The notes: generated by a model from the letters alone, not told the origin. A stretch of DNA of 46,174 nt, filler included, from Sphacelaria rigidula (GCA_964200075.2; 2 parts of 2 records of this genome joined end to end with filler, not necessarily neighbours in it), one strand, 5' to 3'; shown: positions 3,917-35,292, counted from the first letter of the whole stretch. Numbers and translations are program-made.

Positions 3917-6900
3917 TCAGCCGGAGGTGTTCCTGACAATCCAGGGGTGCTGAGGCACCCTCTCCAACGGCAAGCGGTCAGCCGGTTTCTTGCGGATGAG
4001 GCGTCCAATAAGATCTCGGGCGTCCGGCGTCACATGCTGATCAATCAGTCACACGCCAAATACAAGCAAACAAAGCGAGATACATGAAATACGTGTACGA
4101 GTAGGGCACGTTTGTGTCAACATATTTATTTAGAGCCAGCACGTTAAACGGTGAGTCATCACATAAAAAAACGTGGCTATAGCGACAAGAGGACCTGTCC
4201 ATCTGGCCCGGCTAGCTCGTGGTTTGGTGATAGCACGCCGGACGCAGCAGGCGTTGGGATGCCGCAACAGCGACATAGCATCGTACATTCGACGCACGCC
4301 CGCCTACGTGAAGGGTCGGGCTGTCGGGATTCCATTTCGCCCCTGCTTCTCGTGTACTCAAATACCACCCCACGCTCCCTGGCCTGCCTATAGGTGCATA
4401 GCGCACCTTGTCTGGGGTCGTGCGGGAGCATGCGGAATGTGCATTTTTCATCTTCCATCTTGCTGAAAGAAATTTCAATCTCACCTCTCCTTTCTTTTAG
4501 GAAATAGTCACCAATCTCTAGGGATCAACACGAACCACAAGTTGGTACGCGTGAACCTGTCTCACCTCTTCATGATAGAGAGTTCGTTCAATAATCTCGC
4601 CCCAAAAGTGACCATCATGTGTCCTCCTGTTTTGGGGCGAGGACATTCCCACATAAGACCATGAATTTCAATACCAGAGTGGAGCTTCGGACCCGCGGAC
4701 TCCGCCACATAAAGCGCTGATACTCAAATATAGCCTTGCCAAAAGGGTGTGTGCACAACAAGATATGTGCCCAAAACGAGCTATGCAAAGACTGCATGTT
4801 GTCGACCAGGAAGGACACGTGAGTGACGGGGCTGATCCGCTTTTTTCCCTGTGCATCTCTGCACCTCCCCCCCGCCCCTTGTGTGCTTCTCTTCACACCC
4901 TGAGCAACAGACTACATTGCCAAAAAATGTACCACGTACAGAGTCGACTGTGGCGTCTATTGCAATGGACTACACTCTATACTGTACGCAGTACACTTTC
5001 GAAAAATGTAATCGTGTGCAGGGCGTGCTTGTCTCACAATACAACATCACCAATACGTACCGAGGGGTACCGTAGGTCGACGTTGATGATGCGGCGGTAC
5101 GTGGCGCTGTGCCCCTGAGCGTCGAAGGGCGGGTTGCCGACCAGCAGCTCGTACATGAGCACCCCCAAGGCCCAAATGTCCACGGCTTCGTTGTGCTCCT
5201 GTAGAAAACACAACAGCAAAGACCGGCGGCGGGTGTTATGTGAGTGTTGAAGTGTTTGGGGGAGGCATGGCCAAAAATGACAACGGCGTGACGTACCGAA
5301 GTCGATGCAGTACCTCTTTGAAGCTTGAGCATGTAGGCATGAAAGTTAAATCAAACGGTTGCCATGAAGTATATCCGAAAGCTCGGCAGTCACCAGTAGC
5401 TACGGCAGCGACAGAGCTGGGCTTAACCGAGTTTACATCTCCGAACGTACAGCATCATCATTTCAATCATATATTGCATAGTGTGGAATTTTGTCGTGAG
5501 CGAGATTCATTTTACATGTTGCTAGCACTTCACGTCAGCAGTTCGCATACCATACAATGAGAAAATCGTACCGGGCGAGAGGCTCGACACACCCAACTCG
5601 AAGCCGTTACGGGTTGCCACTGCCGGGTACAGTACTGCGCCCCAGGATGAACGCCGCGGTTACGTATCGTTTGCGGACAAAACTGTATTTTTTCTCCACA
5701 AAAGCTGGGGCATCGAGGCGTTTACCTCGAGGAACACTGGGATATGAATTGTTCGACTACGACATGCGAAATTCATGGAGAGCAAGCAATAACTAACCTT
5801 GCCCTCCACCATCTCTGGGGGTAGGTAGTCGAGGGTACCGCAGAAGGTCTGGCGACGGTTGGACGGGGCGTGCACGGACCATCCGAAATCCGCGATCTTG
5901 AGCTGTGATGCGATAATGTAGGTGTGACGGCGTGTGATGATGCATGCAAGAGCAGCGGTCACGCACGCGAGCGCACGGAGGGATCACGATAAGTGTGAGA
6001 GAAAAAGCTAATGATATGAGAAAGAAAAAAAACAGCGTAACAAAAGTCGAATCAAGAGCGAACAAATACTTTCCCACATTGCAAGAACTATCGCAAGAGA
6101 ATTCAATCGCAAAGTCTGGTCGGGCAGAGGCGCGCTTGAACTCCTGGAGGATGACCGGAAAATCTGGTCAGTCGATGTCAGCGCCAGTACAGTACAGTGC
6201 TGAGCTAAATATGAACCATATGCAGGACAGAATCCAGCCTCCGCGCAGCCAAATCAACGTGCGCTGCAACGGAAAATCATTCATCATACTCGTTTTTCTT
6301 TAATTTGTGCAGGTTCGCCCGACCACGTGGTGTTGAGGGCAAAAAAAACTTCCCTCATATCATCTACACTATTTCAAGAGAAGATAACCTCTTCACCCCA
6401 CCACCGAGCTTTCAGCCGTGATCCGCATGGCACATTGTTTGATATGATTTGGTTTGATTGTCGCACTTCAAGTGACTCCTAAGGGTTCTCTCCTAAGGGT
6501 TCTCTCCTAAGGGTTCTCTCCTAAGGGTTCTCTCCTAAGGGGTCCAGACGTCGTCTCATGGTAGACGTACGTACCCACGAAAAACTCAAACACGCTCTGA
6601 GAAAAAAAAGGGGGGAGTCGAAACACATATCTTCTCTTTTCAGAGAGGTGAACGCTTGAATTCTCACATCATCGTCAACGATATCCTCACCACCACGAAA
6701 CGAGGCTGCGCTGCTGAGATGATCATTATGGGGAGACTTTTTGGGCTATCATATCAAGTACTTGGAGACAGTGTGACGGTATAAAGACACAAGAGTAGAC
6801 ACAGAACATGACCAGTGAGGTGACATAGCTACCTCGCCGTTGTGCCCGACGAGGAGGTTCTCGGGCTTGATGTCCCTGTGAATCACGTGCTTCGAGTGGC

Positions 6901-9900
6901 AGTAGCTCAACGCGTCGGCCACCTCCTTCACGTACTGCGCGGCCCTTCGCTCCCTGCAACAGTCACATTTTCCAAAAAAAATATACGGGGACATTCGTGT
7001 GTTTGTTTAGGTAACGGGGGAATTACCATTTTTCCAATTCCTTGTCTCATCAAGCCTTATTCTCGTTCCTTGTTTTGGAATTTCTCGGGGACGTACAAAA
7101 CAGTAGAGCCAGAGCTTTGGTCGTACACTATGGTTGACACAAGGACTACTTGATTTTAGACTTGGGGAAAGTTTTGAGAAAACCTAGAGTTGGAGGCATG
7201 GCGAGTAGTGGACCCAGCTCGTCCAGAACGTGTTCTTGTCGAAACCGGCGCGGCGTCAATTTCACGTCTGCTTGAACACCCCGTCGCCCGAGGGTCTCGT
7301 GTGCCTTGGGTCGGGGTTAGGGTTAGGGTTTGCGTTATCATTAGTTCGAAAAAATCAACAATGAAAATACGACCAAAACTTGGATTCGCCTCTATAAAAA
7401 CGCCTCGACGACCATCCACACACCAGTTTTACCTCACACCGGGGCATAGCGGTACTTCTGTGTTGTAAATTCAGGACATAAAATAGTCCTCCGCCACGCG
7501 GATGTACAGCTAGCAGCGGAGTTGGACCCACACCACACGGGTCGTCTTTAGAGCCTACACTCTGGCAAAAAGCACAACGAGCACAGTTACGCTGACGACA
7601 CTCATCACCGGGATCGAGGCTCAGGTAAACAATGTTCACTTGTAGCAATGAAAGGTACATGGTTCTCCGGGCTCCTCCCCTACAACGGCAAGGTGAAGAC
7701 GAGAGGAGAAGGCGGGGTATTGATGTATCCATCAGAGCACAGCGGAACTCCACGTTCTAGATATAACTCAACCACAGAGTATGGCTGACGACAAGAGCAC
7801 ACTGTCTGTTAGTGGAACACGGATGGTGAAACGCTCGCGAGTCAGCCCGTGGAAACGCTAACGCCATGAAAATACCATGTGCCTATTTCACGCAGCTTGT
7901 GATCGCAGATTTGGAACCTCCCCTCCCCCAACATCACCACCTCTACGACTGCCAAAAAATAAGCCATTCAACGGTTTTGGAGGGTTTGATCACGAGGCTT
8001 GCTTACCCGAAGCACCCGGCTTCAACAAGCGAGTTGTAGAGCTCCCCGCCGCTAGCGAGCTCTAGGATGAGATAGATCCGCTTGTGGTCGTAAAAGAAGC
8101 CCAGCCTAAAGGAGGACAAAAAAGCATGAGGTAATAGAGAGGGAAGGAACAGAGGAAATAAAGTGGAAAACACCGGAGCTTCTTTAGGATGTCAGCCGAT
8201 CCGATGAGCACTCGAGCAATGACACTGATTGAATACATTAGGGAGGGCGAGAGGAGTCGATAAACTTCAGTGGGTACAGACATCTCAAAACCTTGGTGCT
8301 TGTCCGCGATACACACTCGACAAAATCAGTGTCGACATCCACAACGGCGGGGATGCGACGACTTCGACCTCCGACGCCCAACTCTCGGGACAGGGATACT
8401 TGATGAGGGAGCGAATATCCCTACAGTGAAGAAGCAGCATCGCCAACAATGTTCGTCCGTGAATCAGCACAGGTGTGCAAGATGAGATGCGAGATGCACA
8501 CAAACTGTGGGCGGAACCCACATTCGGAGAATATTCCGGTGTCGGAGGTGCGACTGAATTTCAATCTCTCTTCGCAGCTGATGCTCCACCCCAGACTTGG
8601 AGAGTTGCTTCTTCTGCAGCACCTGTCGCGCACGCACACCCGTGCGTGAAACACACACAAAAAAACGATGGAGGGAGAAGGAACGTGAGGAATCATGTCA
8701 AGACGTGACTTCTAGACGCCCGCCGTGCATGATTTCACCATTCCTTCCCTCTTGCGTGACGTGCACTCTTGTATGCGCAACTGAAACAGAGTCGAGTAGG
8801 CGACAAAGATTGTTTTACTGTATGCTTCTGCTTCATCTGCGACTGTGAGATGTTGCTGGAGGATGTTCAACATCTGCTGAAATCGCCTCGTGGAAATACA
8901 ATATGGGCACACACGGACTCAGATGAGGCACCAATATAGATAGAGAGTTGCGAAAAAAAAGTATCACCCAAGCAAGCTGTGGAGAACTTCACGTAACACG
9001 AGAGAAAAGTGTCCCCACCGCCAACTGACGCGACAGTACACGCGCAAAACCCTCTTGGAATAAAAAAAGAGTGATTCCAAACATTGCACAGGGATACATC
9101 TGAGGAATTTCCAGCAGAACTGCGCAACGTATGCGCCTGTGGCAACCTACATTGTCACTCATGTTTATCGGGTTGTACATGAATTTCAAACTTCGTCATG
9201 GTTTGGTCACATGTTTGAATTTGATTATTCCGAGCTTTTCCGCGAAACTGACATTTTTCAGGTCAAGGCCATTTCCGCAAGGAAATGACCCGCTCGTGGC
9301 ATAATCTTTCATCCAACAATTTTTCAAGCAATCCGAGGTCGAAGTTTGCCCCCAGATGCCTTTGGTGGAGGAACCTTGCTTCGGCGTGAAGCGCAAGAGA
9401 GCGAGCGCCGGTGGTACCATTTCCAGAGCAGGAGGGAGTGTACACCCATCTCAAACGGACAACCTATGTCACGCAATACCCAGGCTCGTCGGGGGTAAAA
9501 GTAAACAAGTATCTTCGTTGGGCAGCACAGCCGAAGGAAACCCTCTTGGCTGTCGACTTTATGGAAGTACCTGGACCATACTACTAGCAATAACAATGAA
9601 CGGTGCCAACTGACCATAGCAGCGGGGAAAACAGATATTTTCGTGGTGAAAGCTTGGGAAGCCAAATAACACAGGGTGTACCTTACCCCCGTTTCTACAT
9701 TTCCAAAGGGTAGTCGAAATGTAAATGTCACGGAGTCTTCCATCCCAAGCGTGCCAGGATCGACTGGCGGGAAATTACACCATGTGTGTGTGCATCAGGT
9801 CTTGACGCTGACCGAAGATGCCACTCAAGCTATGAACGCTTCATGCGGTCAAGGGGCTCAAAACACGACTCAATACTGACACCGGCTCGGGAACCTAGGC

Positions 9901-10088
9901 TCGCCGTGTGATGCTGTACCGCACCTCACCTTAATGGCTGTCACGTATCCTGAGGTTTTCTCACGGGCCAGATATACTCTCCCGAATTTGCCCTGTCCCA
10001 GCCGCCGTCCGATCTCGAAATCTTCAAGGGACCATCCTCGCCGGGGCGCTCCACCCTGACCCACAGGACCTCCTCCAACTGGCCTCAT
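3917..10088 (-). CDS. AUR: Aurora family Ser/Thr kinase, 7 coding exons, ~280 aa
   Basis: Exons (minus) 10088-9930, 8622-8522, 8105-8007, 6953-6833, 5902-5798, 5198-5061, 4036-3917, all GT-AG and phase-compatible. The product has [52 protein letters not shown], the Aurora signature [27 protein letters not shown], and C-terminal [13 protein letters not shown] ending in TGA. The ATG at 10088 directly follows CGCAG, so an upstream (UTR) exon may exist. Confidence 0.96.
4894..5027. mobile_element. Hairpin MITE, family A (TIR CACACCCTGGACAA-like), copy in the last Aurora intron
   Basis: CACACCCTGAGCAACAGACTACATTGCCAAAAAATGTAC ... GTACACTTTCGAAAAATGTAATCGTGTGCAGGGCGTG forms an imperfect long palindrome. 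Flanks CTTCTCTT / CTTGTCTC match at 6/8, consistent with a TSD. Homologous to 36646-36786 and 40055-40129. Confidence 0.75.
6476..6541. repeat. 14-bp tandem repeat (CTCCTAAGGGTTCT) x4.7 in an Aurora intron
   Basis: Four perfect units plus a partial unit, read directly. Confidence 0.95.
7314..7330 (+). repeat. Short interstitial telomere-type repeat (GGGTTA)x~3
   Basis: GGGTTAGGGTTAGGGTT inside an Aurora intron. Confidence 0.7.
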
Positions 10089-10526
10089 CTGCGACTGCCA
10101 AGGACAACATATGGCCAGATGACGGGATAGTGACATGTATATTAAAGTTTTGACCGTTGTTTTGGATTCGTGACCCGTCAGCTCTTCTGCAGTTGATGAA
10201 CCAATAAATTGATCGATCAACTGAAGGCTTGAGTCACCCAATTGATGTGTGAGAAACGTCGCCAAGTCCATGTTTTGGGAGCGGCCAAGAGAAAAGCACG
10301 CGCGCGGGGGGATGGGGGGGGAGGCGGGACGCGCTTTCCCAAGAACCATACTGTACTTCTCCAAAAAATCGTCAAATCGGAGAAATGAATGGGGGCGGAG
10401 GTGGGGGCTACGCAAGCTTTCAACTTACAAGTGTTATTTTCCTTCAAAATCGACCTCGTTCTCTCTTCCTGTCATAAATTCAAAAAGTATGCACTACATA
10501 TACTCGTCTTGGCCCTAACCCTACTC

Positions 10527-10746
10527 GTCACCCCGGTGGCTCAGTTGGTAACCGCGAAAACTTTTGACAGTTTGGAGGTGGGTTCGAATCTCGATCAGAT
10601 CACACGATGTGAGATTTTCCTCCCAAGACATACCCAACAATGGAGAGCGATCACGTCATGGGTACACAAAGTTCGACTTCACGGTCAACGAGGGATGGGG
10701 GGCGTACTAAATTAAATTGCAAAGGCACCGGAGGTGAGGTAGGTAC
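10527..10746 (+). mobile_element. tRNA-derived SINE-like element, copy 1
   Basis: A-box TGGCTCAGTTGG and B-box GGTTCGAATC with tRNA-like spacing but no complete cloverleaf. It aligns over ~200 bp with the minus-strand copy at 24139-24381. Confidence 0.75.
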
Positions 10747-10769
10747 CCGGTATCGGTATTTGGGACTTT

Positions 10770-11045
10770 TAATACCCTACCGATACAGGTCCAATCGAGT
10801 ATTGTCGAATGGCATACCTACGATACAACGGTATCTCGAGATACCAAGACCTACCGTACCCGCCCAATCGGGTATTTTCAAATGCCGTTCCTACGATACC
10901 ACGGTATTTCGAGATACCAATACCTACCGTACCCGCTCAAGCAGGTATTTTCAAAACTCATACCTACGGAATCTCAGTATTTCGAGATTTCAATACCTGC
11001 CGTCTCTGCTCAATCGAGTATATTCAAAACTCATACCGAAGATAC
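10770..11045. repeat. 73-bp tandem repeat, ~4 copies
   Basis: CAATACCTACCGTACCCGCTCAATCGAGTATTTTCAAA...CATACCTACGATACCACGGTATTTCGAGATAC recurs at ~10770, 10845, 10918 and 10991 (period 73). Confidence 0.9.
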
Positions 11046-13359
11046 CTATGCAAAACACGGTATGGGATACCCCGGTGAATACCGGGGTATACCCTGTAAT
11101 AACGGACGCCATGCACTCCCCATGGTGCAGAAGTTGTCGGACCAGGTACGTTTTGTTTACACAAGTGATATGTACCCAGATTCCCCCTGCCTTGTGTGTT
11201 TGGACCAATTTGGATAAACTCATCATCATGTAGTCTGACACCTGTGGTCGATTTTTTTTGGGGTCTGATAGGTCCGCCACATTTTTGGTCTTCGGAGGCT
11301 TCTCCAATTTGGAATTAGTGGCGCGCAGAGAAAAACTACATAACAAGCTAAGCTTTATCGATCGAAAACATACGGTCGAAAGGCACGAAGCAGCACTCGA
11401 CTCATATCTTACAGACCATCACGCCAGATAATACCCTTTCACAGAACCATGCTCGCTCCATCCAACTCATTCTCAGCTACCATCCCAACCCTGACGGCAT
11501 CGAGTACGAGTTAAGCACACAGGGGTAGATACCCTGCAGTAGTTGGGTGTGCTTTGTTTATTTTTTGTGGGCAAAAACTTACGTATCTTCTGCCATGGTA
11601 GGATCAGCGACGGAACTGCGTGGTACGGTGTGCAACCAAATTGCGTACACGCTCATGAACAAACAGTGCAGGCAGTACAAAGCTGCACGTTTTTGAAGTT
11701 CTCCTCACGTCGAATTGTGAGCAGAGAGAACCTCTAGTCCTCGGCTCTCTGCACTGCACGTCGCCCGCTTTCGTCGAAGATCCATCCTACTGTACGAAAC
11801 ACGCACACGCGCGCTCGAGACACACTGCTTGGAAGCGGTGCAGACAGTACAGACTGTCTGGACTGTACACGATTGGGCATGTACCGTTTCATGAATTTCA
11901 CCGTCTTTTTTCGATCGAAAACTTGAAAAAATTTGTTCGCCTCAGCCGTGTGCCGTTCAACAATTGACCAGACATCCCTCTCGAAACAGACCACCGTCTC
12001 GGACGAAGGCGGCTCAACCCTCCTCGCGATAAAAAAGAGCACCGACAGCACGATAAAAACATCTGGGTTGACCTTTCCCCCGTATGTGATTGACCTCCCC
12101 CCTGTGTGTGACGCCGGCTGACGTACACACCATATATTCCGAAAGGCGGAAGACTAGCGTCGAGAAAAGATGGGATGACTACACACACCTACTGCACTAC
12201 TGTATGGTGCGGTAGTAGCATCCATTCTCCTGCGCTGTGCCAACCCCTCGTTTGGCCAAAAAGCGAGTGCTACAGTGGAACTCCGAATGCCCGCGCCGAT
12301 CATTTTTAGTACTGGGCAATAACTGCACGGGAGTACACGACGGCAGACTTGCATGACTTCAGTACACGTACGAGCGGCAGCTCGGTCTAGGACGGCGCGT
12401 GTCGGCCTTTTTCTTGGTAATTCGACAGCACAAATGGCAACACGACTCAACCATTAGACAATCTTGCTCGAAAGAACATTTTTCTAGAGTTTCGACGCTG
12501 CGACAGACATATAGTTGTCGTCTTCACATTCAAAACCGTTCCGATATGTGCGCAGTACCCTATACTGGACATCTGATACTGACACCTTCCGCGGTCACCA
12601 GCTGATACCCCTAAGCCACGAGTATAGTTGAGAAAAAAAATAGGACGCGAAGTGAACAGCCAGTTTTTTTCCCGCCAATATTTTGTCGAGTACTGTACAG
12701 ACAAAGCAATCCACAGGAGCAAAGCTGCAGTTCCAATCAGTTTCGGAAAGAGGACATTACCTGACCAGCTAGCTGCTGTTACCACACTTTCATGTACACA
12801 CGGAAAAGCGTCGTGCCGACAGCGGCACGGGGCATTGCAGCCTTGTACCGCTAATCATCATGCCACGTTTTGCAAATATAAGTGCTGTTCAACACTCGGG
12901 TACGTGGGCAGGGTCCGCTACCTCTAACCCTAAAAATGTGACGGTGAATAACACCCCGGCGGGTCTTGAGGGCTCAACCTCGATATATTGCAGAAGCGAG
13001 GCCTTATACTGCAAGCTCATCTTGTGCGCGAGGAAGTGCTGACTCATCAGATTCCACGAAAAACTTGTTGGGGGCGGAGTATCCGCATTTCTAGAAGAAT
13101 TTCAGGTTCAAAACACTCGCCGTAGGGGGTGTTAACCTGCGTTATTTTCCACACAAGAGACATCGTACATGTCGCGGGTGAAGACGGCATCAGCGCTCTA
13201 TAACATTGAAACGGTGTCCATCTTGCGCAGCTAGCTACGAACACGACCGACACTTGACGTTAAATGACATTCGAGTGGTAGGCACACCAACCGTCAACAG
13301 AAAATAATTGAGGCTGTAGGGTAGGAGGGTGTTGAGCGTGTCACCATCTTCGCGCGGGA

Positions 13360-16300
13360 ATGGCTTTTTGCGTCAACGGGGAGGAAACAAGGGACACAAG
13401 TGTCGGTTTTAGCGGTGCACCCGTCACAACTCCAGAAACAAGAGCCAAGCGCAGAATCGACAAATCGAATGTCAGGCTAAAAGCCACTGAAATCTCAAGG
13501 CAACGTGCATAAGAACTCACCACCGCGGTAGACGCCATTCCTCGTTTGCACTCTCAACAAGGCGTTGTGTCGACCCTGTCAGCTCCTCTCAAGTACAGAC
13601 AGTTGGTTGTCTCGAGGACGGTATGATCAACCGTAGCTGAACGCTCAACACGGAACACCACCCGGTACCGAATCACAATCGAGATACAGCGCAGTAGGTA
13701 TCTTTTGTACCAGCACTTTTGTATATCTGATCAGTGTGATGAACTCGAGTGGCTGCAGGAAGTTTGCTGTGGTATAAGTAGACGATACTACGTGATGCAG
13801 GCAGGAGGTGTGTCGTGCGCGCGACCGCTGAAAGTGGCAAACGGCCACATTTGCGCACAAAATCATGGAACTGACATTTTGGTTTCACCGCATTTTCAAC
13901 AAATATCTTCGGGACCCCGAAACAACGGCCACAACTACCCGAGGTAGATGCCCCGCTATTCTGGACCCCCACGCCCCACACCACCCCCCACCCCTGCAAC
14001 GACTGAATCACCCGTGGTGCTGTGGAAGTAAGATAGTTGACGTACTGCACGCTACATGCCGCCGCAATAGCCTGCTTCTGTATACACGTGATGTCTGTAT
14101 GCCCGTCACTATCACCACAACCACCACGATGTAGGCTTAGCGCAACGGTTGTCGAACTCTTGCAGCACGCGATTGTTGGACCTACCAGCAGCGATGCTCC
14201 AACGCCACCTAGTAGCGCTGGCAGGGACATATCTAGTACTTCACTTGGAGAGAACGAGCACTACCGCTGCGAGGAAGAGAGATGGATCCTTGACCGATTG
14301 ATTTTCGCGGCCAACTGCCCTCATGACGAGAGGGAGGCGAAGTCGACCCCTGCCCCTACCGCTTCTACCTGTGAGGTGTGATATCTGCCTGTTCGTCCGG
14401 TGTGTGCAACTGGCGTAGACACGCACCTGAAATTCAAGTACTGTAGGCGACCCCACCGAATGCTTTAGATTATTCTCACCCACCTCGGTCAGAGGATGCG
14501 ACCTAGCTACTATGCGCGGCCTTCACGTTGCAGGAACTAATTGTACTGAAACAAACAACCTCTGTGCTCGAGTAGTTGAGGTTACAATGTTTTGCTGGAG
14601 GCGCTGGGTTCTTTACCGTACAGTGCTGGGTATGGACAGCAACATGAACCGCAAGTTGTACCAGACCCGGGGTCTTCATTTAGCAGGGATGGCCAAAGGC
14701 CACCGCCTGCTCGTTTCTGTTGTCGCCACTTGTTGCCACAGTACGGTAGCTCTAAAGTGAACGATGTCTCTGTGAGTCAGTAACCTCACTTGCCCGTCCC
14801 GTGTTGTTGACTGTACGGAACCAAGCGCCTGTCGGTCGTATTTACTTGTACCCCACTACCCCTGTGGGGTGTGCGGGGCGGAAATCAAACGGAGAGTCGT
14901 GTGTTGTACTCCATCGCGTACCCGCACGGACCATGGCACCCGTCGTTGTTCGCTGATGACCCCTTTTTTTTTTTTATAATACCTCCTTACTCCCGTCCTC
15001 GTCCGCCCCAAGAAAAAATTGAGATGCCGTGTGGGGTACGGGTATGAAATTCGGTACAGAACTCACAAAAGTGTGGTATGGAGGAGGTTTAACAAGAAGC
15101 CTTGCATGAATCCGTGTATTTCTACAAGAGAAGACCCCCGTACCCCGGATAAGGGTATGCATCTTGTGCCGATCGTTCAAAACTGTAGGGTACCAACATG
15201 GAAGGCTTACCGAATTCAAAAAACTGACAGGTACCGGTAATACCTGGGTGAAGTACCGCGGGAATACACATGTTTGTACCGTACACGACGACCTAGATGG
15301 CCTTCGAAACATTCCGAGATCATGATTCGATATAAAATGGTGTTGCGCATGATCAGCTTTGGGTTTGGTCTAAATTAGTCCACGAAGGATTCCCCGAGGA
15401 CAGTGAAGCGGAAGAAATTTTTAAGTTCATGTTTTGTAGGGCATGAATATATTGTCCAGGGTGTAACATTTATCACCGAGTTTTCGAAACTGTCGGGTGC
15501 GGTATGGGGTATACAGAAGCCCCTACCCGCGACCAGGTATACCTCCAAGGGTATACACATACGCCGGGTAAGGGTAGCCAGTTTGACCAGATCGTACACA
15601 ACTGTTGGGTACGGGCATGGGAGGCTTACAGAGCTCACAAAAGCTGTCGGATACTGAGAATACCCGGGTAAACACCTCAGGTATACCAAAAATCGTGCTC
15701 TACAGAACGAAGCCATACGTTGTATTCTGAAGGGTATGGTACATCCCAGAGTAAAATGATCGGGGATGACGCGTTTGGTGCGCATAGCTGAGATTGTCCT
15801 GTGAGTGCACGAACATCCTGATGACCAGCGACATGACAGCTCCAGTAGTGTCGTTTGGCAGAGTGCAGTGAATCTGACGCCGCCGTCGGCTTCCATGGCT
15901 GGTGTTAGCGATTTGCTGTTGTCGTGTAAAGTCGGAAATGTTGCTGGTTGAGCTCTTTTTGGCTCTCGTACCAATGTGGTCTGCTGCTGGGAACTTGAAT
16001 GCTGTTGAGCACAGGGCACATACGTACCAGCATGTCGTGTGAAAGTGTAAATGATAAGGAGACACTGTCTCTACTACTGTATGCATCCTAGTCCATGCTC
16101 GGCTTTTCGGCTCAGTTCTTAACCACAAACTTGTACCTGAACGTGACCATAACCTTGACACGATCTTCTCAATACACGGGACTAGAATATAAAGAGCCAA
16201 CCAAACGTTCGATCCGCCTGAAACGCAGCACTCCAAGGGTATATTCATGTTTTGTGGAAGTAACTACTGGGTTAAAAAAAATCTTCACATGCGGATGTCG

Positions 16301-19300
16301 AAGCTTGGTGAAATTGTGTGTTGCGTGGATAATATGAACGCACGAGATGAATGAAGCCCGGGGGTGTATGGTTGTCCGAAGTAGGTTGAAACTCCGAGTG
16401 GTTCATGTCTGGTTTTGAAAAATTTCGCATTCGTCCCAGGAAAGTAGACGTACATCATTTTCATGAGCGCCGTGGATCGGCGGCATGAAGATGCTAGATG
16501 AGGTATGGGAGGCGCCCCTCCTGTCTGCACACGGCCCCCCGGCAACCGGCAATCTTGCATTTCGAACCCGCCCCCGCTTGACACACTATCCTCTTCGATT
16601 CCCTCTCCCTCATGAAGAAGGCCCACATGTACCGCCCACCATCCCGCGCAACCATCGAGGCAGCCGCTGATTGTGGAAGTTCTTCCTTCTTCCTGGGCCA
16701 TCTCCTTTCCTTTGGCTTCCTTTCCTTTCCCGGCGAAAATGGCCTCGAAAAACCACACACAGGAGCAGAATACTGACCCCATAGGCGCGTTGGGCACACT
16801 GCAGCTGCGTCGCGTGCTCCGCGCGATAGGATTGCCTACCGTAGGTACGCAGCAGGCGGTGCTTGCCGAACGATTGAGAGAGGCAGTGCAATCGGGACAG
16901 GCCGCGTCTTACGCGGACAAGACGAATTCTACGGCAGCTGGACCAAATCAATGCGGTGGGTCTTGCGTCGTTGTCCATATTTTTTCCGTCTCCATTTCTG
17001 CTGTCCGGTGTACCCTTCGAGAGTTTTGTACGGCTTCATGAATCGAGGATGGAATTGCGTGGTCACAACATACATGCACCTGAACGTAACGCGAGAAAAT
17101 CATCACTTGAGGTTCATTGTAAGGGCGGCTGAACGTGTCCCCGTGATCTTGCATGCCGTAGTCGTGGTCCTCTGCAGCGTGTGACGACGTGAAGATGAAC
17201 TCCGGCGCAACTGGTGACACCGTAACAGATGAGCATTCTGTTGCACCGGTGGGATGCCTTCTCTATGGTGCATGCGGAATGACGAAAATACATGTCAGGA
17301 GCCCAAGCGACTTTGCGGCAGGAGTGAAGCTTAATCTCGTTCTCTCTCCTTGCCGAAGTTACTATTTCTTCTTTTAGCCGCGCTGGGCTCTTTTTACACA
17401 CAGTCCCGAGCAAAGTTGGTGGTGCCACTTGGCCCTGGCCGCTGGAGTAATATCTGCTACGTGTAGCCCATGTTCCGTGCTGCATGTGGCAGAGTCTCAT
17501 TTTGACCTAGCCTTGATTTATGGGCAAAAAACTGTTCAGACTGTTGCCGATTACTTTCTCCGTTTCCTCTTGCTGATCTTTTCGGCCATTTGTCCGCTCT
17601 GCATGTAACCTCGTTCAAACAGTTGTCCAGGCACGAAAGGCCAAGGCCACGCTGGCTCTCGTAGAATCCCTGCTGTCGGGCTCGACTGACATCGCTTCGA
17701 TGTCCGTGAATCAGCCGCACGTACCATCCTCGCCCATCTCAGACGAGCCTACGATATCTTCAAACGAAAGCGGCTTCGACATCCCCATTACCGCCACCGC
17801 CATCGCCACCGCCAACAGTAGCACCGACACCGGTGATGATATAATGAGCAGCACTAGCCCCATCGTCGACAACGACGGCGTCCACAGCGATAACGCCCCC
17901 AGTGCCACCACTACCACTGAAGCCAGCAGCAGCAGCAACAACAACAAGAACATCAGTGAAGCCCTCTCAAACACAATCGCCGACAACAACACTCCCGCCA
18001 TTTCGACAACCACGACGACGAAGCCCCTTGCGGAGACCACAATTCTGACAACAGCAGGCGCATCAGCACCTGTACCGGTCCCATCATCCCAGACCTCGAG
18101 TACTACCGAAGCCATAACCAGCCCAAATGCAGTAGCCGCCCCCCCAGCGACCGTATCCCAGTCGTCTACATTGGCCACCGCCGAGGTGCCAGCTACGGAC
18201 GAACCACCCGGTTTCACAAGCACAGAGCCCGTCGCCGCCGTTGTTGACGGAGATGAAGACGGAGGAGGGGTGGTGGTGAAGGTACCCTCGGCCGCCAGCC
18301 TCACATCCACAACGTCTGTCACTGCCAGCGAGACTTCACTGTCGTCGTCATCATCGTCGTCGCCATCGCCTCCATCATTACCGTCGTTTGCGCCGCACGA
18401 ACGAACCCCTCCGAAGTCGGCACCGGCCGGTGCTACCTCTGCTCCCGTCGTGAAAACGAGTGGGGAAGATGTAGAAAAGTCAACGAAGACTATAACACCA
18501 TCGCGAGATGTGACCGGAAAAACGGCGGTCACGCCAGTAGCAACGGAGACGACAGCGAGTGCGTCGGATGTTGTCGACGCAAAAGGCGTCGCGGAGAAGA
18601 CAGGCGAAAAGACTACTGTCGCCTCAAATACCGCGGAGAACAGGGCGGGCGTGTCTTCGGCGTCGAAGAAGACGGGCTTACCGGTGCAAGGTCGCGCTAT
18701 CCATACCTCACCGTGGGGGTCTTCATCGTCTGCTCGCTTCGCCACTACTAGTAAGAAGGCCCCAATGCCGGCGCCAGCGCCTGCGGCGCCCAAAGGTGAG
18801 CAAAGGATGGCATGTTTAAATATTGGTAGGGTATTGCAGATTATAAAGTCCTCGGACATCCTGTTTGCTCAAAAAACTGCACTCGCATCAAAATATTGGC
18901 TGCGGGGTGTGCTGTGGTTTGAATCGTCTCCTCTTCGGATATCGCATATCTGCAACGGGGCAGCCGTACAGCACCGTACCGCACTGACTTGTGTGTCATA
19001 GATTTCCACACTTTGAAGCGACGAATGCCCACACGAGGAAGAAATCACGGTAGCAGTGTAAAGCATTTTTATAACCTGGATCAAAACATTCGTGTTACGG
19101 AATACACGAACTTTCATTATCGTCCGGCGTACCCGAAGCCAAGAATTTTCGCAATCTTGGTCGCGAGCAGCTTTCGGTCTGTCGTCCTACGCAGATTAGG
19201 CTCTGGTTCCGCACCAACCGGCGGACAAAAATGACCGAACACCGTCTTGAAACGGGGGTGCGAGAGCCCTAGCCTCTGGAAGATTGCATGCACTTGCTTT

Positions 19301-22300
19301 AATTTGTCAGCATCATCCAGACACTAAAAAGGCTTGGTGTTTATGGCCTCGTTCACGGGAACACTCAGCCCCATTTTTGAAGGTGTGGAATGAAAGCAAA
19401 ACGATGAAGCCGGACTCACGAAAAAATCCAGTCATCACTCGTGCGTGTCATGCTCCACACGAGATTCGCTTACCCCCATTCGGTTCCACCGCATCCTCTC
19501 TCCTCCGAACCCCCGTTACCTTTACTGAAGGCAACCCGTGGCGAAGAAGACAAGCCGGCGGTGGGCGGGTCGCTGCTCTCATCGGAAACTTCGATGCGAA
19601 GAGCAAGGAAGGCAAGGCCAAAGTCAGGGACGTCAAGGATAGGGCCAAAGAAGTCAAGGACAGGGCAGTAGGCGCTATGAAGGACAAAAGGTCATCGACG
19701 GACCTGAAAGAGAAAGCCAGGGACGCGAAGGCCAAGGCGAAGGGGTGGACCAAGACAAAGGTGGAGATCAAGATCGTGAGGGTTAGCCCGGGAGACGACG
19801 GGAGTAAACATCAGGAACGCCAGCAAGAGCATGGCACACCACTCCAGGCGTCGGCGGGGGTCATCGGGGGCGCTCAGCAACCGCTGCCAACGGTCGGCAA
19901 CAGTTGCAACGCGGCGAGCAGCCCTGCTCACGGGGCGATCAACACGAGTAACCCGGGTCAGTCGGAGGGCAAGTCGAACAGTGGTAACGTTGTGCCCAAC
20001 AAAACCGCCGATATCTCGCCGACAGCCGACCCGGAGGTTGACCCGCAAGTCGCCGGAGAGATCGCTACCCCCCAAACCGTCTCAGCCTGTCCAAAAAACG
20101 GCAGCCACTTTGAGGTGCCGACCTCGGTGTACCCTGCATATAGTCCTGGGGCAACCACTCCTACTACGAAAGAGACCACTCTCGCTGTGGACACATCTAC
20201 GAAGCGCGGCTGGGGTCCACCGAAAGCTGCGCCGCTGACGAAGAGCATCAGCACACCGGTGTCTCCCACACCATCAATTGCGAGCGCCTCGACCATGAGT
20301 CTCAGCCCTCCTCCGTCCCCTAGACCCGGTAAAAACAGGTCCGCTGGTTCCTCTGCTTGCCGCAAGCTCTTCAGCCCATCCACGTCTGGCACTGCCAACT
20401 CCTCCACTCAGTGTCCGTCCACCACTACTTCCACTACTGCTAATGCCCTGCCGAAGTCCAGGTGGGGGCCGCCGTCCGCCACGCCGTATTTGGTGAACAG
20501 CGTGTCATCACCGGAGGCTAGCCGACCGGGTGGTGTAGCTGATGTGTTGCCGGGTTCTTCACCTTCCGGTAGTATCCCCAGCCTTCCCAAGAAGCCATCA
20601 CCGCCATCATCTTTTTCGAAGAAAGTTCCTGCGGGTGCGAGCACCGCGGTAGGTGGCGGAGGAGGTAAAGCGCCTCCGCTGCGAAGTAGTCGCGACGTGC
20701 CAACCCAGTCTGCCAGCAACGACAGCAACGGCAGCAACTCCCCGTCTCCCCCGTCCTCAGCTGCCTCCACTACTGCGGCACCTCCCAAAAGCAAAGGCCA
20801 GGCAACACCAACACCAAACCCCAACCCCAGCGCACGGAGCGCCTCGAACATCAACAGTAGCAACAACACCGAACCCCAATCCGCGACAGCACCACCAACC
20901 AAGAGTGCTCTCAAGAAGCTACGGCCGCCGCCGCCCAGCAGCCCAGCACCTCCGGTGCCCCAGCGTTTGATCATGGCCCAAACCACCCCTGCAACAGCGG
21001 CATCGGGCGCTTCGCAACTGGGGGGCTGCTACAACCCGCTGCTGCCCTCGAAGCTCGTCGGCGGTAGTGGTGGTGCACGGCCCGCGATTGGAATAGCCAC
21101 CGGTACTGCTTCTTCGATAGCCAACAGCATGGGTGGTGGACTCAAGAGGGTCGGTAAAAAGGCCGGAGGGGGTGGAGCTACCGTTGGTTTTTCGACTAGC
21201 GGGCCAAGGTTGCCTGCGCCGCCGAAGGCAACGGTGGTGGCTAACGCCGCCGTGAGTGGTGGCCCCTTGTCTCCGGTGCAGCAACCGCCGTTGTTCCAGG
21301 GAAAGGAAATCATGGTGGATTATGGCTTCGGTGCGGGAGATGGACACGACAGCGACAGTGACGGGGGAGAGGAACACGAGAGCGACGACGAGTACCATGT
21401 GTGAGTTTCACGCTATCTCGTCTTGAACGACGTTTTCACCATGTCGGTCCTGGTGATGATGGTCTCTGATGATGCTCTCTGATGATGGTCTCTGCTGGTG
21501 CCATGGGGTCTGTCGGCCCTGGTGATGATGGTATCGGGCGTCCGTGCGTACGCTTTTGCTCACTGTATGGTGCTTTCTTGTCCTCATGTGCTGTCGTTCT
21601 TGCTGTTATTGTATTGATTGACTTGCTTGGTGTCTTCTTTTGAGACGCTTTCGGACCTAGCCTGTGCTCGTTGGTCTGGTTGGTTATATTGTATATGGGC
21701 CAGCCTTTGACACTTCTAGCGCACGTAATTGTACCGGAACGGCTGCTCTACTCGGACCGCGTGATGCAACAGAAAACCGCATCGAAACTTACGCCAGGGC
21801 GTTGGTGATGCCAGATGACGCTCAAGGTGAAGGGTCATACGACAACTGGTATCGATGCCCTCGTAAAGCAAGTTGGGCCTAGGGAACTATCTGCACAAGT
21901 GCTGTATCCCGTCTCCCCGGTATGCCCTCACGTGTATCATACAAAGGAGGATGGCGGACTCACATATACTGTTTTGGCGTTGACCTAACGCATATGTACG
22001 TCTTCTCGTTGTCCCCGTTGCCCCCTCCAATATCGCCCCCCCCCCCCCTCCAATATCGCCCGACGGGTTACTTGTGCGCGTTTTCCAGCGGAGAGTCTGG
22101 TTCGTCGGAGGAAGAAGATGATGACCCTGTCCTGAAGCTACTCGAACCGTGAGTAAATGATGGCTTTCTCACGAAGTCCCTGCCGTCCCGGAAATGATGG
22201 GGTTGTTCGGGGTTCCAAGTGAGAAAACCAAAGTGAACCCATCGTGTCGTCATAGACCATGACTGTAGCCCACGGTTTGGTCCTCGTGGGTGATCGAACA

Positions 22301-22786
22301 CTCCCACGACCTTCTCTGCAGTAGGTATCAAGTACAGTATGCCGCGCTGAACTGATGAGCTTGGAGTTACTGGACACTCGAATAACCATGTCGTGGGGCT
22401 CGGATGGAATCTTGTTTGGGCGCCATGGCTTGGTGGACGTCTCATTGAGGACAGCGACTGGTATCTGGTTGTGTACGTTAATCTCTGGGACCTCTCGTCG
22501 AATAATGGGTCTGGTCTGTCTAGCGGCATGACTTCGGGTCGCTTGTCACAATGTAATGACTCAATCTTGTCGTTGCGTCTTTCTCTTGTGTTTTCTCTTG
22601 CCTCTCTTGCTTCGGCAGGGCGGTAATGCCCGAGTGGGCACGGAGCAAGGCCGTGGCCGAGGCTCTCCAGCGGCAGTTCGGGGGTGATACGCCCGTGAAT
22701 CCCAACCACATCTTCGTGGATTTCTTCACATGCAACCTGGAGAACATCTTCGATACCAAAAAGAAAAAATGGAACCGCAGAAGCAC
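13360..22786 (+). CDS. INCENP: INCENP-like chromosomal passenger scaffold (putative CEN-box, SAP domain, S/T/P-rich disordered region, C-terminal IN-box); >1365 aa, 3' end lost at assembly gap
   Basis: Phase-consistent GT-AG model: 13360-13504, 13583-13620, 13714-13943, 14135-14375, 16763-16955, 17178-17248, 17715-18795, 19531-21400, 22089-22148, 22619-22786. The last exon encodes MPEWARSKAVAEALQRQFGGDTPVNPNHIFVDFFTCNLENIFDTKKKKWNRRST, matching the IN-box pattern PxWA...Q...P..IF......L..IF......R(T/S)S, and follows an acidic stretch. Exons from the end of 17715-18795 onward are well supported; the 5' exons and their linkage are less certain. Confidence 0.72.
15020..15715. repeat. Two diverged copies of an interspersed GGGTAC/ACAGAACTCACAAAAG-type repeat in an intron
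   Basis: CCGGATAAGGGTA...GATCGTTCAAAACTGTAGGGTAC...GGCTTACCGAATTCAAAAAACTG...AATACCTGGGT (~15146-15260) matches CCGGGTAAGGGTA...GATCGTACACAACTGTTGGGTAC...GGCTTACAGAGCTCACAAAAGCTG...AATACCCGGGT (~15563-15675). Confidence 0.75.
16781..16888 (+). other. SAP-domain-like motif within the INCENP-like gene
   Basis: IGALGTLQLRRVLRAIGLPTVGTQQAVLAERLREAV fits the SAP consensus (L..L...ELK..L..RGL...G.K..L..RL). It lies in an exon whose acceptor CACACAG at 16762 follows a long pyrimidine tract. Confidence 0.7.
22626..22786 (+). other. INCENP IN-box (Aurora kinase-binding domain) coding segment
   Basis: PEWA / QRQF / NPNHIF / CNLENIF / WNRRST pattern. Flanked by acceptor CTTCGGCAG (22618) and donor GTGAGT (22787), and in frame with upstream exons. 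Confidence 0.82.
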
Positions 22787-22887
22787 GTGAGTTTCTGCCT
22801 GTTTTTTCTTGTTCATTTTTTTCCCTTTTTTTATCCTGCTTCACTCACTTGGTTCCACCTTGAATCTTGACCTTCGTCTTTTCCTAT

Positions 22888-22940
<53 letters not shown>

Positions 22941-23042
22941 CTTTGTTTTTTTTTTTTTTTTTTTTTTTCTCGGCTCTGTCTTCTTTTTCTTTCTGTTCGA
23001 TCCCTTTCTTTTTCTTTTTTTTTGTTCCTTTTTTTTTCTTTT

Positions 23043-23142
23043 NNNNNNNNNNNNNNNNNNNNNNNNNNNNNNNNNNNNNNNNNNNNTTAATTAATTAANN
23101 NNNNNNNNNNNNNNNNNNNNNNNNNNNNNNNNNNNNNNNNNN
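23043..23142. other. Artificial assembly spacer: 44 N + TTAATTAATTAA + 44 N
   Basis: Exactly 100 bp and symmetric, with a six-frame stop linker at 23087-23098. It is preceded by a low-complexity poly-T contig end (~22888-23042). Confidence 0.9.
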
Positions 23143-35041: not shown

Positions 35042-35292
35042 TTGAAGTCCTCTATTTTTCTCAGTGTGGGCAACACACCATTCGCCCGGTCACCTCTCGG
35101 CCGTATACACCAAGATGTGTTACAGCGATATGTCACAGCGCGGAACTGTCAGGATGGTCATGGTAAAATCTGTCCGACATAATGCCTCCTCGTTTTCAAA
35201 CATTTGTTTTCTGACAGTCATTTTCTACCGGGAAAATCTGGGTGGGGCAAACCAGAAACTGAAACAAGTAAAATCTTGGTTTTGTGTTGATC
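35042..35292. promoter_or_regulatory. Putative bidirectional promoter/5' UTR region between CFAP57 and COG1
   Basis: Only 251 bp separate the divergent start codons (35041 minus, 35293 plus). Confidence 0.6.

What the first reader, a model, noticed from the sequence alone, without database searches (positions are those of the whole stretch)
3917..22786. Aurora kinase and its predicted activator INCENP sit head-to-head: a candidate chromosomal-passenger gene pair
Seen: a complete Aurora kinase gene (minus, ATG 10088) and, divergently about 3.3 kb away (predicted ATG 13360), a gene whose last visible exon encodes an IN-box that the ORF track misses. Both lie on the same contig, left of the gap. 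Established: the INCENP IN-box binds and activates Aurora B/Ipl1 in the chromosomal passenger complex, and I know of no physical linkage of the two genes in model eukaryotes. Inference: this may be a co-regulated enzyme-activator module under a shared bidirectional cell-cycle promoter, or a co-evolving paralog pair specific to this lineage.
Basis: partly seen in the sequence, partly recalled or inferred. Interest (0 to 1): 0.85.

Follow-up and report, generated by a model that had tools for sequence, protein, structure and literature searches.

The report
Aurora kinase and INCENP share a promoter
In this brown-alga sequence the gene for the mitotic kinase Aurora and the gene for its activator INCENP really do sit back to back and start within a few hundred bases of each other, a tidy but so far single-species arrangement whose meaning depends on whether other algae keep it.

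Summary

**Aurora gene (minus strand).**
- It has 8 exons, not 7.
- Spliced contigs from 3 runs join 10094 to 13521.
- The true ATG is therefore at 13538, in a 5' exon covered to about 13799. The ATG at 10088 is an internal Met.

**IN-box gene (plus strand).**
- Its contigs start at or before 13987, with a probable ATG at 14091.
- They splice through 14375/16763, 16955/17623, 18795/19531, 21400/22089 and 22148/22619 to 22786.
- The transcript then continues off the contig.

**Spacing.** About 187 bp separate the outermost transcribed bases, and 552 bp separate the two ATGs.

**Identity of the two genes.**
- Exon F hits Pfam INCENP_ARK-bind at E 3.2e-9.
- A profile built from it hits only INCENP chains in the PDB, 9 of 9.
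- The kinase is 273/289 identical to an Ectocarpus fasciculatus protein, whose best PDB matches are all Aurora A/B.

**New in this work.** This INCENP carries a SAP domain. So do 12 of 27 long relatives, which come from diatoms and the PX clade.

**Not tested.** Synteny in other brown algae, paralog counts and co-expression could not be examined. Divergent pairs with short spacers are the norm in Ectocarpales, so chance adjacency remains a live rival.

The parts
3917..4036 (-). Aurora last coding exon (stop TGA at 3919-3917). The 3' UTR continues left of 3917, beyond 3600.
   Evidence: Joint 4036->5061 in X1-X3. The contigs run on past 3600.
5061..5198 (-). Aurora coding exon (kinase subdomains after the activation loop).
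   Evidence: Joints. Pfam Pkinase on the ORF piece.
5798..5902 (-). Aurora coding exon with DFG and the activation loop (…[15 protein letters not shown]…).
   Evidence: Joints.
6833..6953 (-). Aurora coding exon with the catalytic loop (HRDIKPEN).
   Evidence: Joints.
8007..8105 (-). Aurora coding exon.
   Evidence: Joints.
8522..8622 (-). Aurora coding exon.
   Evidence: Joints.
9930..10094 (-). Aurora exon 2 (glycine loop).
   Evidence: Joints 8619->9927 and 10094->13521.
10095..13520 (-). Aurora intron 1 (3426 bp). It is full of high-copy repeats, including a 73-bp tandem array at 10776-11028.
   Evidence: Joint 10094->13521 in 3 of 3 spliced runs. DNA depth is 4,568-25,602 in the bins 10030-12601, against about 26 elsewhere. 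Tandem repeats.
13521..13799 (-). Aurora exon 1: 5' UTR plus the start codon at 13538-13536, coding MASTAV. The left edge is exact; the right edge is the furthest contig end.
   Evidence: The E. fasciculatus ortholog P0004 also begins MAAAV before the conserved block.
13800..13986 (.). Stretch between the outermost covered bases of the two transcripts: the putative shared bidirectional promoter. It holds two copies of AACGGCCACA, at 13840 and 13924.
   Evidence: Contig ends. Motif count 2 against 0.09 expected, with both copies here.
13987..14375 (+). INCENP-like exon A: 5' UTR with a 4-codon uORF (ATG 14056), then the probable start ATG at 14091 and 95 codons.
   Evidence: X3 record 12 starts at 13987. 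Sequence and frames. GT after 14375.
16763..16955 (+). INCENP-like exon B: SAP domain.
   Evidence: Pfam PF02037 at E 1.9e-5, 24.6 bits against a cut-off of 23.9. The N-terminal SAP regions of relatives align here by tblastn, E 1.3e-7 to 3.3e-5. A 194-nt piece lies between joints.
17623..18795 (+). INCENP-like exon C: low-complexity, rich in S, T, A and P.
   Evidence: Joints. Frame. No Pfam hit.
19531..21400 (+). INCENP-like exon D. It has a 60%-charged K/R/E/D stretch from about 19605, a long low-complexity region, and an acidic ESDDEY motif at 21378.
   Evidence: Joints.. The motif aligns with RESYDxY of relatives.
22089..22148 (+). INCENP-like exon E: the acidic lead-in to the IN-box.
   Evidence: Joints 21400->22089 and 22148->22619 in 3 of 3 runs. 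Sequence.
22619..22786 (+). INCENP-like exon F: IN-box core (…MPEWAR … IF … LENIF … KKKKWNRRS.). The transcript continues beyond it.
   Evidence: PF03941 at E 3.2e-9. PDB profile hits are INCENP only, 9 of 9. A loose end of 255+ letters follows 22786 in X1 and X2.
23043..23142 (.). Artificial linker (N44, TTAATTAATTAA, N44) after an 80-nt poly-T. The last INCENP exon(s) are missing from the window.
   Evidence: The loose-end sequence is absent from the window. There is no tblastn hit for the C-terminal tail of relatives.

Best explanation
This is a genuine divergent (head-to-head) gene pair in an Ectocarpus-type brown alga.

- An 8-exon Aurora kinase gene and a gene of at least 7 exons for a SAP-domain INCENP start from the same short stretch. 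The transcript ends are about 187 bp apart, and 552 bp lie between the ATGs.
- The two mRNAs are made and spliced independently, on opposite strands.
- The most likely working: both promoters sit in one nucleosome-free region, as described for divergent pairs in Ectocarpus. The kinase and its activating scaffold are therefore switched on together, presumably in dividing cells.
- At the protein level, the C-terminal IN-box of the INCENP clasps the Aurora kinase domain. Its RRST..W tail is phosphorylated to give full activity, as in the chromosomal passenger complex of animals, fungi and plants.
- The N-terminal SAP domain probably adds direct DNA binding.

Shown: gene structures, transcription and splicing, domain identities, the distance.
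Inferred: shared regulation, timing, physical binding, the role of the SAP domain, and any selective value of the adjacency.
For: GENE STRUCTURE AND LINKAGE
- Spliced contigs of 3 runs give 7 joints in Aurora and 4 listed joints, plus 1 inferred, in the INCENP gene. All have canonical ends and none is seen in the DNA run X5.
- Aurora exon 1 with its ATG at 13538 lies on the same DNA contig as the whole INCENP gene (X5 record 22, 11894-22860). The linkage therefore does not depend on how the repeat in intron 1 was assembled.

AURORA IDENTITY
- The model is identical to E. fasciculatus P0004 in 273 of 289 alignment columns.
- P0004 hits Pkinase at E 1.9e-74.
- All 60 listed PDB matches of P0004 are Aurora A or B. 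The top one is 4af3_A, Aurora B, at E 2.5e-116.

INCENP IDENTITY
- PF03941 at E 3.2e-9.
- 87 relatives at E <=1e-3. Of the 35 longer ones that were scanned, 35 carry PF03941.
- A profile with the window's exon as first row hits 9 distinct PDB sequences, all INCENP. They include chains crystallised with Aurora B, 4af3_D and 2bfx_C.
- The RNA loose end after 22786 reads on in frame to ...RRS-T-GDW-RTDRLT. This is like the RSSSGNWhtDRLT of relatives.

SAP DOMAIN
-.

CONTEXT
- In Ectocarpales more than 60% of neighbouring genes are on opposite strands.
- Divergent pairs there have short spacers, with common nucleosome-depleted regions (passages read in 10.1101/2024.02.19.579948).

COMPLEX PREDICTION
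- Weak support: score 0.44, best of 3 controls 0.00.
- The mark was reached by 51 of 78 solved complexes and 2 of 108 mismatched pairs. At 0.60 or under, it was reached by only 5 of those 78 and by all 4 mismatches that passed.
- The runs agree in >=82% of contacts, and the partner's pLDDT is >=64.
- A like complex has been solved, so the pass may come from the model's memory. It shows likeness, not that this copy binds.
Against: - No test of co-expression was possible. The runs are contigs from one study, and the tool states that their depth cannot rank genes.
- Contigs cannot fix a transcription start, so the 187-bp figure is an upper bound on the gap, not a mapped pair of starts.
- The X2 Aurora contig carries 30 further letters after 13799 that lie nowhere in the window. 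An additional upstream exon or a chimera is possible.
- Conservation is untested in brown algae. In the one informative foreign locus (L009) no Aurora lies within 660 bp upstream or 9.5 kb downstream of a SAP-IN-box gene.
- Head-to-head neighbours are so common in this genome that a second such pair lies in the same window: a WD40 gene and a Vps51/COG1-like gene around 35.1-35.6 kb.
- Exon A shows no detectable likeness to the N-termini of relatives (best E 0.037 among 87) or to any Pfam family. The Borealin/Survivin-binding end of a canonical INCENP is therefore not demonstrated.
- The number of Aurora and INCENP paralogs in this genome is unknown. Chrysoparadoxa has two SAP-IN-box proteins.
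Confidence: 0.6

Rival explanations
1. Chance neighbours. The pair is real, but the adjacency is an accident of gene order in a genome where roughly a third of gene junctions are head-to-head with short spacers. Each gene has its own core promoter and its own regulation, and nothing selects for the linkage.
For: - More than 60% of gene pairs alternate strand, and divergent spacers are short, in Ectocarpales.
- A second unrelated divergent pair lies in the same 46-kb window.
- L009 shows a SAP-IN-box gene without an Aurora next to it.
- No linkage of these genes is known in model eukaryotes. This is my recall, and searches found no paper on it.
- The finding came out of a scan of very many windows, so some striking pairs are expected by chance (inference).
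Against: - For a given Aurora gene, the chance that its head-side neighbour is one particular gene among roughly 17,000 is of the order of 1e-4. The gene number is recalled, not computed here.
- Even chance neighbours at 187 bp would share chromatin state.
- The 10-mer AACGGCCACA occurs twice in the window, both times in the shared stretch. The motif was picked after looking, so this weighs little.
Confidence: 0.3
2. Lineage-specific matched paralog pair. Brown algae have several Auroras and more than one SAP-INCENP. This linked pair is one specialised kinase-activator couple (for example meiotic, or stage-specific) that co-evolves because it is inherited as a unit.
For: - Chrysoparadoxa australica (PX clade) has two distinct SAP-IN-box proteins, P0027 and P0090.
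- Epithemia has two near-identical copies.
- Aurora families expanded independently in many clades (statement read in the introduction of 10.1101/2022.01.07.475321).
Against: - Nothing here shows a second Aurora or a second IN-box gene in this organism. Only one of each lies in the window, and no genome was available.
- The kinase is highly conserved and equally close to Aurora A and B structures, as expected of a generalist.
- The transcripts were assembled in all three spliced runs laid.
Confidence: 0.1

Closest known systems
Aurora B-INCENP module of the chromosomal passenger complex (animals; Ipl1-Sli15 in yeast; AUR3-INCENP/WYRD in Arabidopsis)
   Same: - An Aurora-type kinase domain and a C-terminal IN-box.
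- The IN-box has the conserved IPxWA Trp, the IF and LExIF positions and an R-S/T-S/T..W tail.
- The INCENP is a long, mostly disordered scaffold with a charged stretch ahead of the IN-box.
   Different: - In those organisms the two genes are unlinked (recall). Here they are divergent neighbours about 187 bp apart.
- This INCENP has an N-terminal SAP domain, which neither search 33 nor the passages read in PMC9680938 mention for any INCENP.
- Its N-terminal three-helix-bundle segment could not be recognised.
- Komaki et al. report that Ectocarpus Borealin is itself unusual, with its N-terminus fused to an FHA domain (passage read).
SAP-IN-box proteins of other ochrophytes (diatoms Epithemia and Thalassiosira punctigera, Chrysoparadoxa, MMETSP transcripts)
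   Same: - The same architecture: a SAP-like helix-turn-helix near the N-terminus, a low-complexity middle, an acidic RESYDxY-like motif and a C-terminal IN-box.
   Different: - They are 508-775 aa, while the window's protein has more than 1249 codons spread over more than 8.7 kb with large exons.
- Their genomic neighbours are unknown, except for L009, which has no Aurora nearby.
- The long chrysophyte relatives (Chromulina, Paraphysomonas) were not among the SAP-bearing ones.
Conserved head-to-head functional pairs, e.g. M1PDH3-M1Pase1 of the brown-algal mannitol cycle
   Same: - Two genes of one pathway, divergent, with about 500 bp of intergenic region in Ectocarpales (passage read in 10.1101/2024.02.19.579948).
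   Different: - That pair is documented as conserved across brown algae. For Aurora-INCENP, conservation has not been examined.
- That pair is two enzymes of one cycle, whereas this one is an enzyme and its protein activator.

Membership tests
Aurora kinase family | Complete Ser/Thr protein-kinase domain. | tested here: met
   Seven ORF pieces hit Pkinase in order along the profile, positions 1-211. The ortholog P0004, identical in 273 of 289 columns, hits PF00069 at E 1.9e-74 over profile 1-263.
Aurora kinase family | Closest solved relatives are Auroras rather than other AGC/CAMK-like kinases. | tested here: met
   In the P0004 search against the PDB, all 60 listed sequences are Aurora A or B, including fusions. 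The top hit is 4af3_A, Aurora B, at E 2.5e-116. The test was run on the ortholog, not on the window's own spliced protein.
Aurora kinase family | Aurora-type activation loop (DFGWS…[13 protein letters not shown]). The motif is recalled from memory. | tested here: met
   Read directly in exon 5902-5798: [28 protein letters not shown].
Aurora kinase family | Assignment to the passenger-complex (B-type) function rather than the A-type. | not testable with these tools
   Scores against Aurora A and B structures are equal within noise. The A/B split is animal-specific (recall). A paralog count and localisation data would be needed.
INCENP | C-terminal IN-box (Pfam INCENP_ARK-bind). | tested here: met
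   PF03941 at E 3.2e-9, 37 bits against a cut-off of 22, profile positions 17-55 of 55. The profile search against the PDB returns INCENP only, 9 of 9.
INCENP | Conserved Trp of IPxWA and the downstream Phe positions that contact Aurora. Their roles are recalled from the Aurora B-INCENP structures. | tested here: met
   W6, A7, L16, Q19, P28, F32, C38, L40 and F44 of exon F are invariant in 23 sequences. The same columns are invariant.
INCENP | Phospho-acceptor tail (TSS-like) followed by Trp. | tested here: inconclusive
   Exon F ends ...NRRS plus 2 bases. The RNA loose end after 22786 continues in frame to T-GDW-RTDRLT (my reading). The genomic exon is not in the window.
INCENP | N-terminal helix that bundles with Borealin and Survivin. 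| tested here: inconclusive
   Exon A has no Pfam hit and no significant match to the N-termini of 87 relatives, best E 0.037. These segments are short and diverge fast, so this is no evidence of absence.
INCENP | Physical binding to and activation of Aurora. | tested here: inconclusive
   Complex prediction gave weak support: 0.44 against a best control of 0.00, with >=82% contact agreement and partner pLDDT >=64. A like complex has been solved, so the pass may come from the model's memory. Biochemistry is needed.
Bidirectional (head-to-head) promoter pair | Adjacent genes on opposite strands with starts less than 1000 bp apart. This is the definition given in the abstracts listed. | tested here: met
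   The outermost contig-covered bases are 13799 (minus-strand gene) and 13987 (plus-strand gene). The ATGs are at 13538 and 14091. Contig ends are bounds, not mapped starts.
Bidirectional (head-to-head) promoter pair | Correlated expression driven by the shared region. | not testable with these tools
   Only contigs of one study were available, and their depth cannot rank genes.
SAP-domain proteins | SAP motif (Pfam PF02037) above the curated cut-off. | tested here: met
   Exon B scores E 1.9e-5, 24.6 bits against a cut-off of 23.9. 12 of 35 relatives match at E <=0.01, the best at 1.1e-11. DNA binding itself was not tested.

The most novel reading that the evidence does not exclude
The Aurora-INCENP head-to-head pair is an old, selectively kept co-regulated module of brown algae, possibly of the wider PX clade: one short cell-cycle promoter fixes the stoichiometry of a kinase and its obligate activator. 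The duplicated AACGGCCACA boxes would be its Myb-type mitotic elements. In addition, ochrophyte INCENPs use an N-terminal SAP domain to bind chromosomal DNA directly. That would partly replace the Survivin/Borealin reader module, which is rearranged in this lineage.
Probability: 0.2. Interest if true: 0.75.

Novelty: new variant of a known kind. Interest (0 to 1): 0.5.

Why it matters
Aurora B and INCENP must be made in matched amounts and at the right time, and how cells ensure that is usually explained by separate cell-cycle promoters. A natural case where the two genes share one promoter would have three uses:
- It would be a compact, testable model of enzyme-activator co-regulation.
- It would be a ready-made bidirectional mitotic promoter for brown-algal genetics.
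- If conserved, it would be evidence that gene order can be selected for complex stoichiometry in a multicellular eukaryote.

Separately, a SAP domain on the passenger-complex scaffold of diatoms and brown algae suggests a different way of attaching the complex to chromatin. This is a lineage where the Survivin and Borealin parts are known to be rearranged.

If the adjacency proves confined to Ectocarpus, the finding shrinks to a corrected gene annotation and a curiosity.

Tried and rejected
GENOME AND EARLIER NOTES
- Whole-genome search and laying the genome: no genome is held for this window.

PROTEIN SEARCHES THAT FOUND NOTHING
- The search for homologous proteins with the IN-box exon, longer proteins: 22 candidates, none at E <=0.01.
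- The same tool with exon D, longer proteins: 8000 candidates scored, none at E <=0.001, with low-complexity crowding.
- As a result, no full-length brown-algal INCENP was recovered.
- Protein atlas with P0026: no usable hit.

RNA RUNS
- No listed holder is on record as RNA. X1-X3 were treated as RNA-derived only because their contigs are spliced.
- Parts without contig cover say nothing. This applies to the bins 8744-9386 and 12602-13244, which had depth 0 in X1-X3, and to the 187 bp between the two transcripts.
- Contig depths were not used as an expression measure. They were 261/251/84 for the Aurora contig and 59/46/12-15 for the INCENP contig in X1/X2/X3.

SYNTENY
None of the 10 holds an Aurora by tblastn at E <=1e-3.
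- Nine of these loci are 1-4 kb and uninformative. Only L009 counts.

MISSING PIECES
- The next INCENP exon (loose end after 22786) and the 30 loose letters after 13799 were sought in the window with up to 3 mismatches: 0 matches each.

OTHER NEGATIVE SCANS
- Rfam at gathering thresholds and ARAGORN over the window: nothing.

REJECTED READINGS
- An ATG at 13360 as the INCENP start: the position lies in the intron that the Aurora contigs join across.
- Assembly artefact: Aurora exon 1 and the whole INCENP gene lie on one DNA contig of X5.
- E2F-like reading of TTTGCGCAC near 13850: it does not fit the recalled consensus.

MOTIF DENSITY
- AACGG occurs twice in the 188 bp between the transcripts, against 0.37 expected. 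This is suggestive at best, and the motif was chosen after looking.

LITERATURE
- Searches found no paper on Aurora-INCENP gene linkage or on a SAP domain in INCENP.
- Judged from search listings, except for the passages read in three texts: PMC9680938, its preprint 10.1101/2022.01.07.475321, and 10.1101/2024.02.19.579948.
- The supplements of these papers were not seen and may bear on both points. They include the paralog counts of Komaki et al. and the gene-order tables of the Phaeoexplorer preprint.


Full report
WHAT THE WINDOW IS

The window is eukaryotic DNA with many introns. A block of N44-TTAATTAATTAA-N44 at 23043-23142 follows an 80-nt poly-T. It is an artificial linker, so only the part to its left is one physical contig. 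The closest named protein to the kinase is from Ectocarpus fasciculatus, so the source is an Ectocarpus-type brown alga.

THE AURORA GENE

- Stop-to-stop ORFs on the minus strand carry kinase pieces in the order of the Pfam profile.
- Exon borders were placed at AG/GT sites: 10094-9930, 8622-8522, 8105-8007, 6953-6833, 5902-5798, 5198-5061 and 4036-3917.
- Contigs of three public runs (X1-X3) skip exactly these six introns. Contigs of a DNA run (X5) run through them. X1-X3 are therefore spliced RNA, although their records do not say so.
- The same contigs carry a seventh joint, 10094->13521. It skips 3426 bases with ends that are GT..AG on the minus strand.
- The exon beyond that joint reads ...ATG GCG TCT ACC GCG GTG | GT, so the protein starts MASTAV at 13538.
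- The E. fasciculatus protein P0004 likewise begins MAAAV ahead of the conserved block.
- The full model has 288 residues and is identical to P0004 in 273 of 289 alignment columns.
- P0004 is an Aurora. It hits Pkinase at E 1.9e-74, and all 60 PDB sequences listed are Aurora A or B, with 4af3_A (Aurora B) on top at E 2.5e-116.
- The activation-loop sequence typical of Auroras is read directly in exon 5902-5798.
The gene reaches from before 3600 to at least 13799.

THE IN-BOX GENE

- On the plus strand the spliced contigs show joints 16954->17622, 18792->19528, 21400->22089 and 22148->22619 in all three runs.
- X3 record 12 starts at 13987 and runs to 14373. It then has 194 letters before 17622. 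X2 record 10 has 506 letters before 17622.
- With the AG ambiguity, this puts an exon A/B joint at 14375/16763, both sites being GT/AG.
- The six exons give 1249 open codons without a stop. Composition is 14% Ser, 12% Ala, 11% Pro and 10% Thr.
- The first ATG opening the long frame is at 14091. A four-codon upstream ORF starts at 14056.
- Exon F hits INCENP_ARK-bind at E 3.2e-9, 37 bits against a cut-off of 22. Before trimming the score was 3.8e-9.
- A search of 1.84 billion representatives found 87 relatives at E <=1e-3.
- A profile with the window's exon as first row hits nine distinct PDB sequences. All are INCENP, and they include the chains crystallised with Aurora B.
- After 22786 the contigs go on for at least 255 letters. 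In frame these give T-GDW-RTDRLT, matching the R-S-S-S-G-N-W..DRLT tail of relatives.
- That exon is not in the window. The X2 contig holds about 2.2 kb beyond 22786.

THE DISTANCE BETWEEN THE TWO GENES

- The Aurora contigs end at about 13743 (X1), 13799 (X2) and 13791 (X3), by record arithmetic.
- The INCENP contig of X3 begins at 13987.
- That leaves about 187 bp between the covered ends, and 552 bp between the ATGs.
- Contigs cannot map true starts, so these figures are bounds.
- Aurora exon 1 and the whole INCENP gene lie on one DNA contig of X5 (11894-22860). The arrangement therefore does not rest on the assembly of the repeat-filled intron 1.
- There is no room for a gene in between.
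- The 10-mer AACGGCCACA occurs twice in the window, at 13840 and 13924, both in this stretch, against 0.09 expected.
- It contains the AACGG core of Myb-type mitotic elements (recall). The motif was chosen after looking, so this is only a lead.

A SAP DOMAIN ON THE INCENP

- Exon B (16763-16955) hits Pfam SAP at E 1.9e-5, 24.6 bits against a cut-off of 23.9.
- The N-terminal regions of relatives P0026, P0027 and P0030 align to it by tblastn, at E 1.3e-7 to 3.3e-5.
- Of 35 longer relatives scanned, 35 have the IN-box and 12 have SAP at E <=0.01, the best at 1.1e-11.
- An iterated search with exon B finds the same 12. They are 12 of the 27 relatives of at least 400 residues.
- Named members come from Chrysoparadoxa australica (two proteins), the diatoms Epithemia and Thalassiosira punctigera, and MMETSP transcriptomes.
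- Two long relatives without it come from the chrysophytes Chromulina and Paraphysomonas.
- Two papers hold both 'INCENP' and 'SAP domain', and both concern SAF-A (search listing).
- The CPC evolution paper of Komaki et al. does not mention SAP in the passages I searched. It does note that Ectocarpus Borealin is fused to an FHA domain.
- Exon A has no recognisable likeness to anything, so the Borealin/Survivin-binding end is not shown.

DO THE TWO PROTEINS BIND?

- The complex test used the P0004 kinase domain with the 55 residues of exon F. It gave weak support: 0.44 against a best control of 0.00.
- The mark was reached by 51 of 78 solved complexes and 2 of 108 mismatches. At 0.60 or under, it was reached by only 5 of the 78 and by all 4 mismatches that passed.
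- Contacts agree in at least 82% of cases, and the partner's pLDDT is at least 64.
- Aurora B-INCENP complexes have been solved, so the pass may come from the model's memory. It shows likeness, not binding by this copy.

IS THE ADJACENCY MEANINGFUL?

- In Ectocarpales more than 60% of neighbouring genes alternate strand.
- Divergent pairs there have short spacers with common nucleosome-depleted regions (passages read in 10.1101/2024.02.19.579948).
- A second divergent pair lies in this very window, on the other side of the linker: a WD40 gene and a Vps51/COG1-like gene.
- So the geometry is ordinary. What is unusual is who the two partners are.
- I know of no linkage of these genes in model organisms (recall), and no paper on it turned up.
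- Conservation could not be tested.
- Nine of those loci are too short to tell. The eleven-kilobase L009 has no Aurora within 660 bp upstream or 9.5 kb downstream.
- Co-expression could not be tested from contigs of one study.

VERDICT

A true bidirectional Aurora-INCENP pair exists and is transcribed. Shared regulation is likely on general grounds but not shown. Selection for the linkage is open.
- The SAP-bearing INCENP of ochrophytes is a second result, possibly the more useful one.

Noticed in passing
window 16763-16955; relatives P0026, P0027, P0030, P0060, P0062, P0063, P0072, P0074, P0087, P0090, P0100, P0101: The INCENP-like protein carries an N-terminal SAP (DNA-binding) domain. The same SAP plus IN-box architecture is found in 12 of 27 long relatives, from diatoms and the PX clade. 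No paper found links SAP to INCENP.
   Followed up: partly
window 10030-12600 (Aurora intron 1), also about 6815-7457: Very high-copy repeats. DNA contig depth in run X5 is 4,568-25,602 in the bins from 10030 to 12601, and 5,491 in the bin 6815-7457, against about 26 elsewhere. A 73-bp tandem array lies at 10776-11028. There is no Rfam or tRNA hit.
   Followed up: partly
window 22889-23142: An 80-nt poly-T followed by N44-TTAATTAATTAA-N44, an all-frame stop linker. The sequence to its right is probably an unrelated contig, and the last INCENP exon(s) are missing from the assembly here.
   Followed up: yes
window about 28000-35089 (-) and 35618-44611 (+): A second divergent gene pair. On the minus strand is a WD40 beta-propeller gene with a coiled-coil piece. 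On the plus strand is a gene with a Vps51/EXO84/COG1 N-terminal domain (E 8.4e-6) and an 854-codon open exon. Their 5' ends are about 0.5 kb apart.
   Followed up: partly
window 14056-14070: A four-codon upstream ORF (ATG CCG CCG CAA TAG) in the 5' leader of the INCENP-like mRNA, 35 bases ahead of the probable start codon.
   Followed up: no
window 13799 and 17144: Unexplained loose ends in the spliced contigs. Thirty letters follow 13799 in the X2 Aurora contig and lie nowhere in the window. At 17144, inside the INCENP intron, contigs of X1 and X2 continue upstream with different G-rich sequences. These may be alternative 5' exons or assembly chimeras.
   Followed up: partly
window 6476-6541: A perfect 14-bp tandem repeat (CTCCTAAGGGTTCT, 4.7 copies) in an Aurora intron.
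   Followed up: no
L009 663-2236: A compact metagenome version of the SAP plus IN-box gene with a single short intron. It is flanked downstream by a sugar-transporter-like ORF and a PP2C-like ORF, and there is no Aurora on the 11.7-kb contig.
   Followed up: partly
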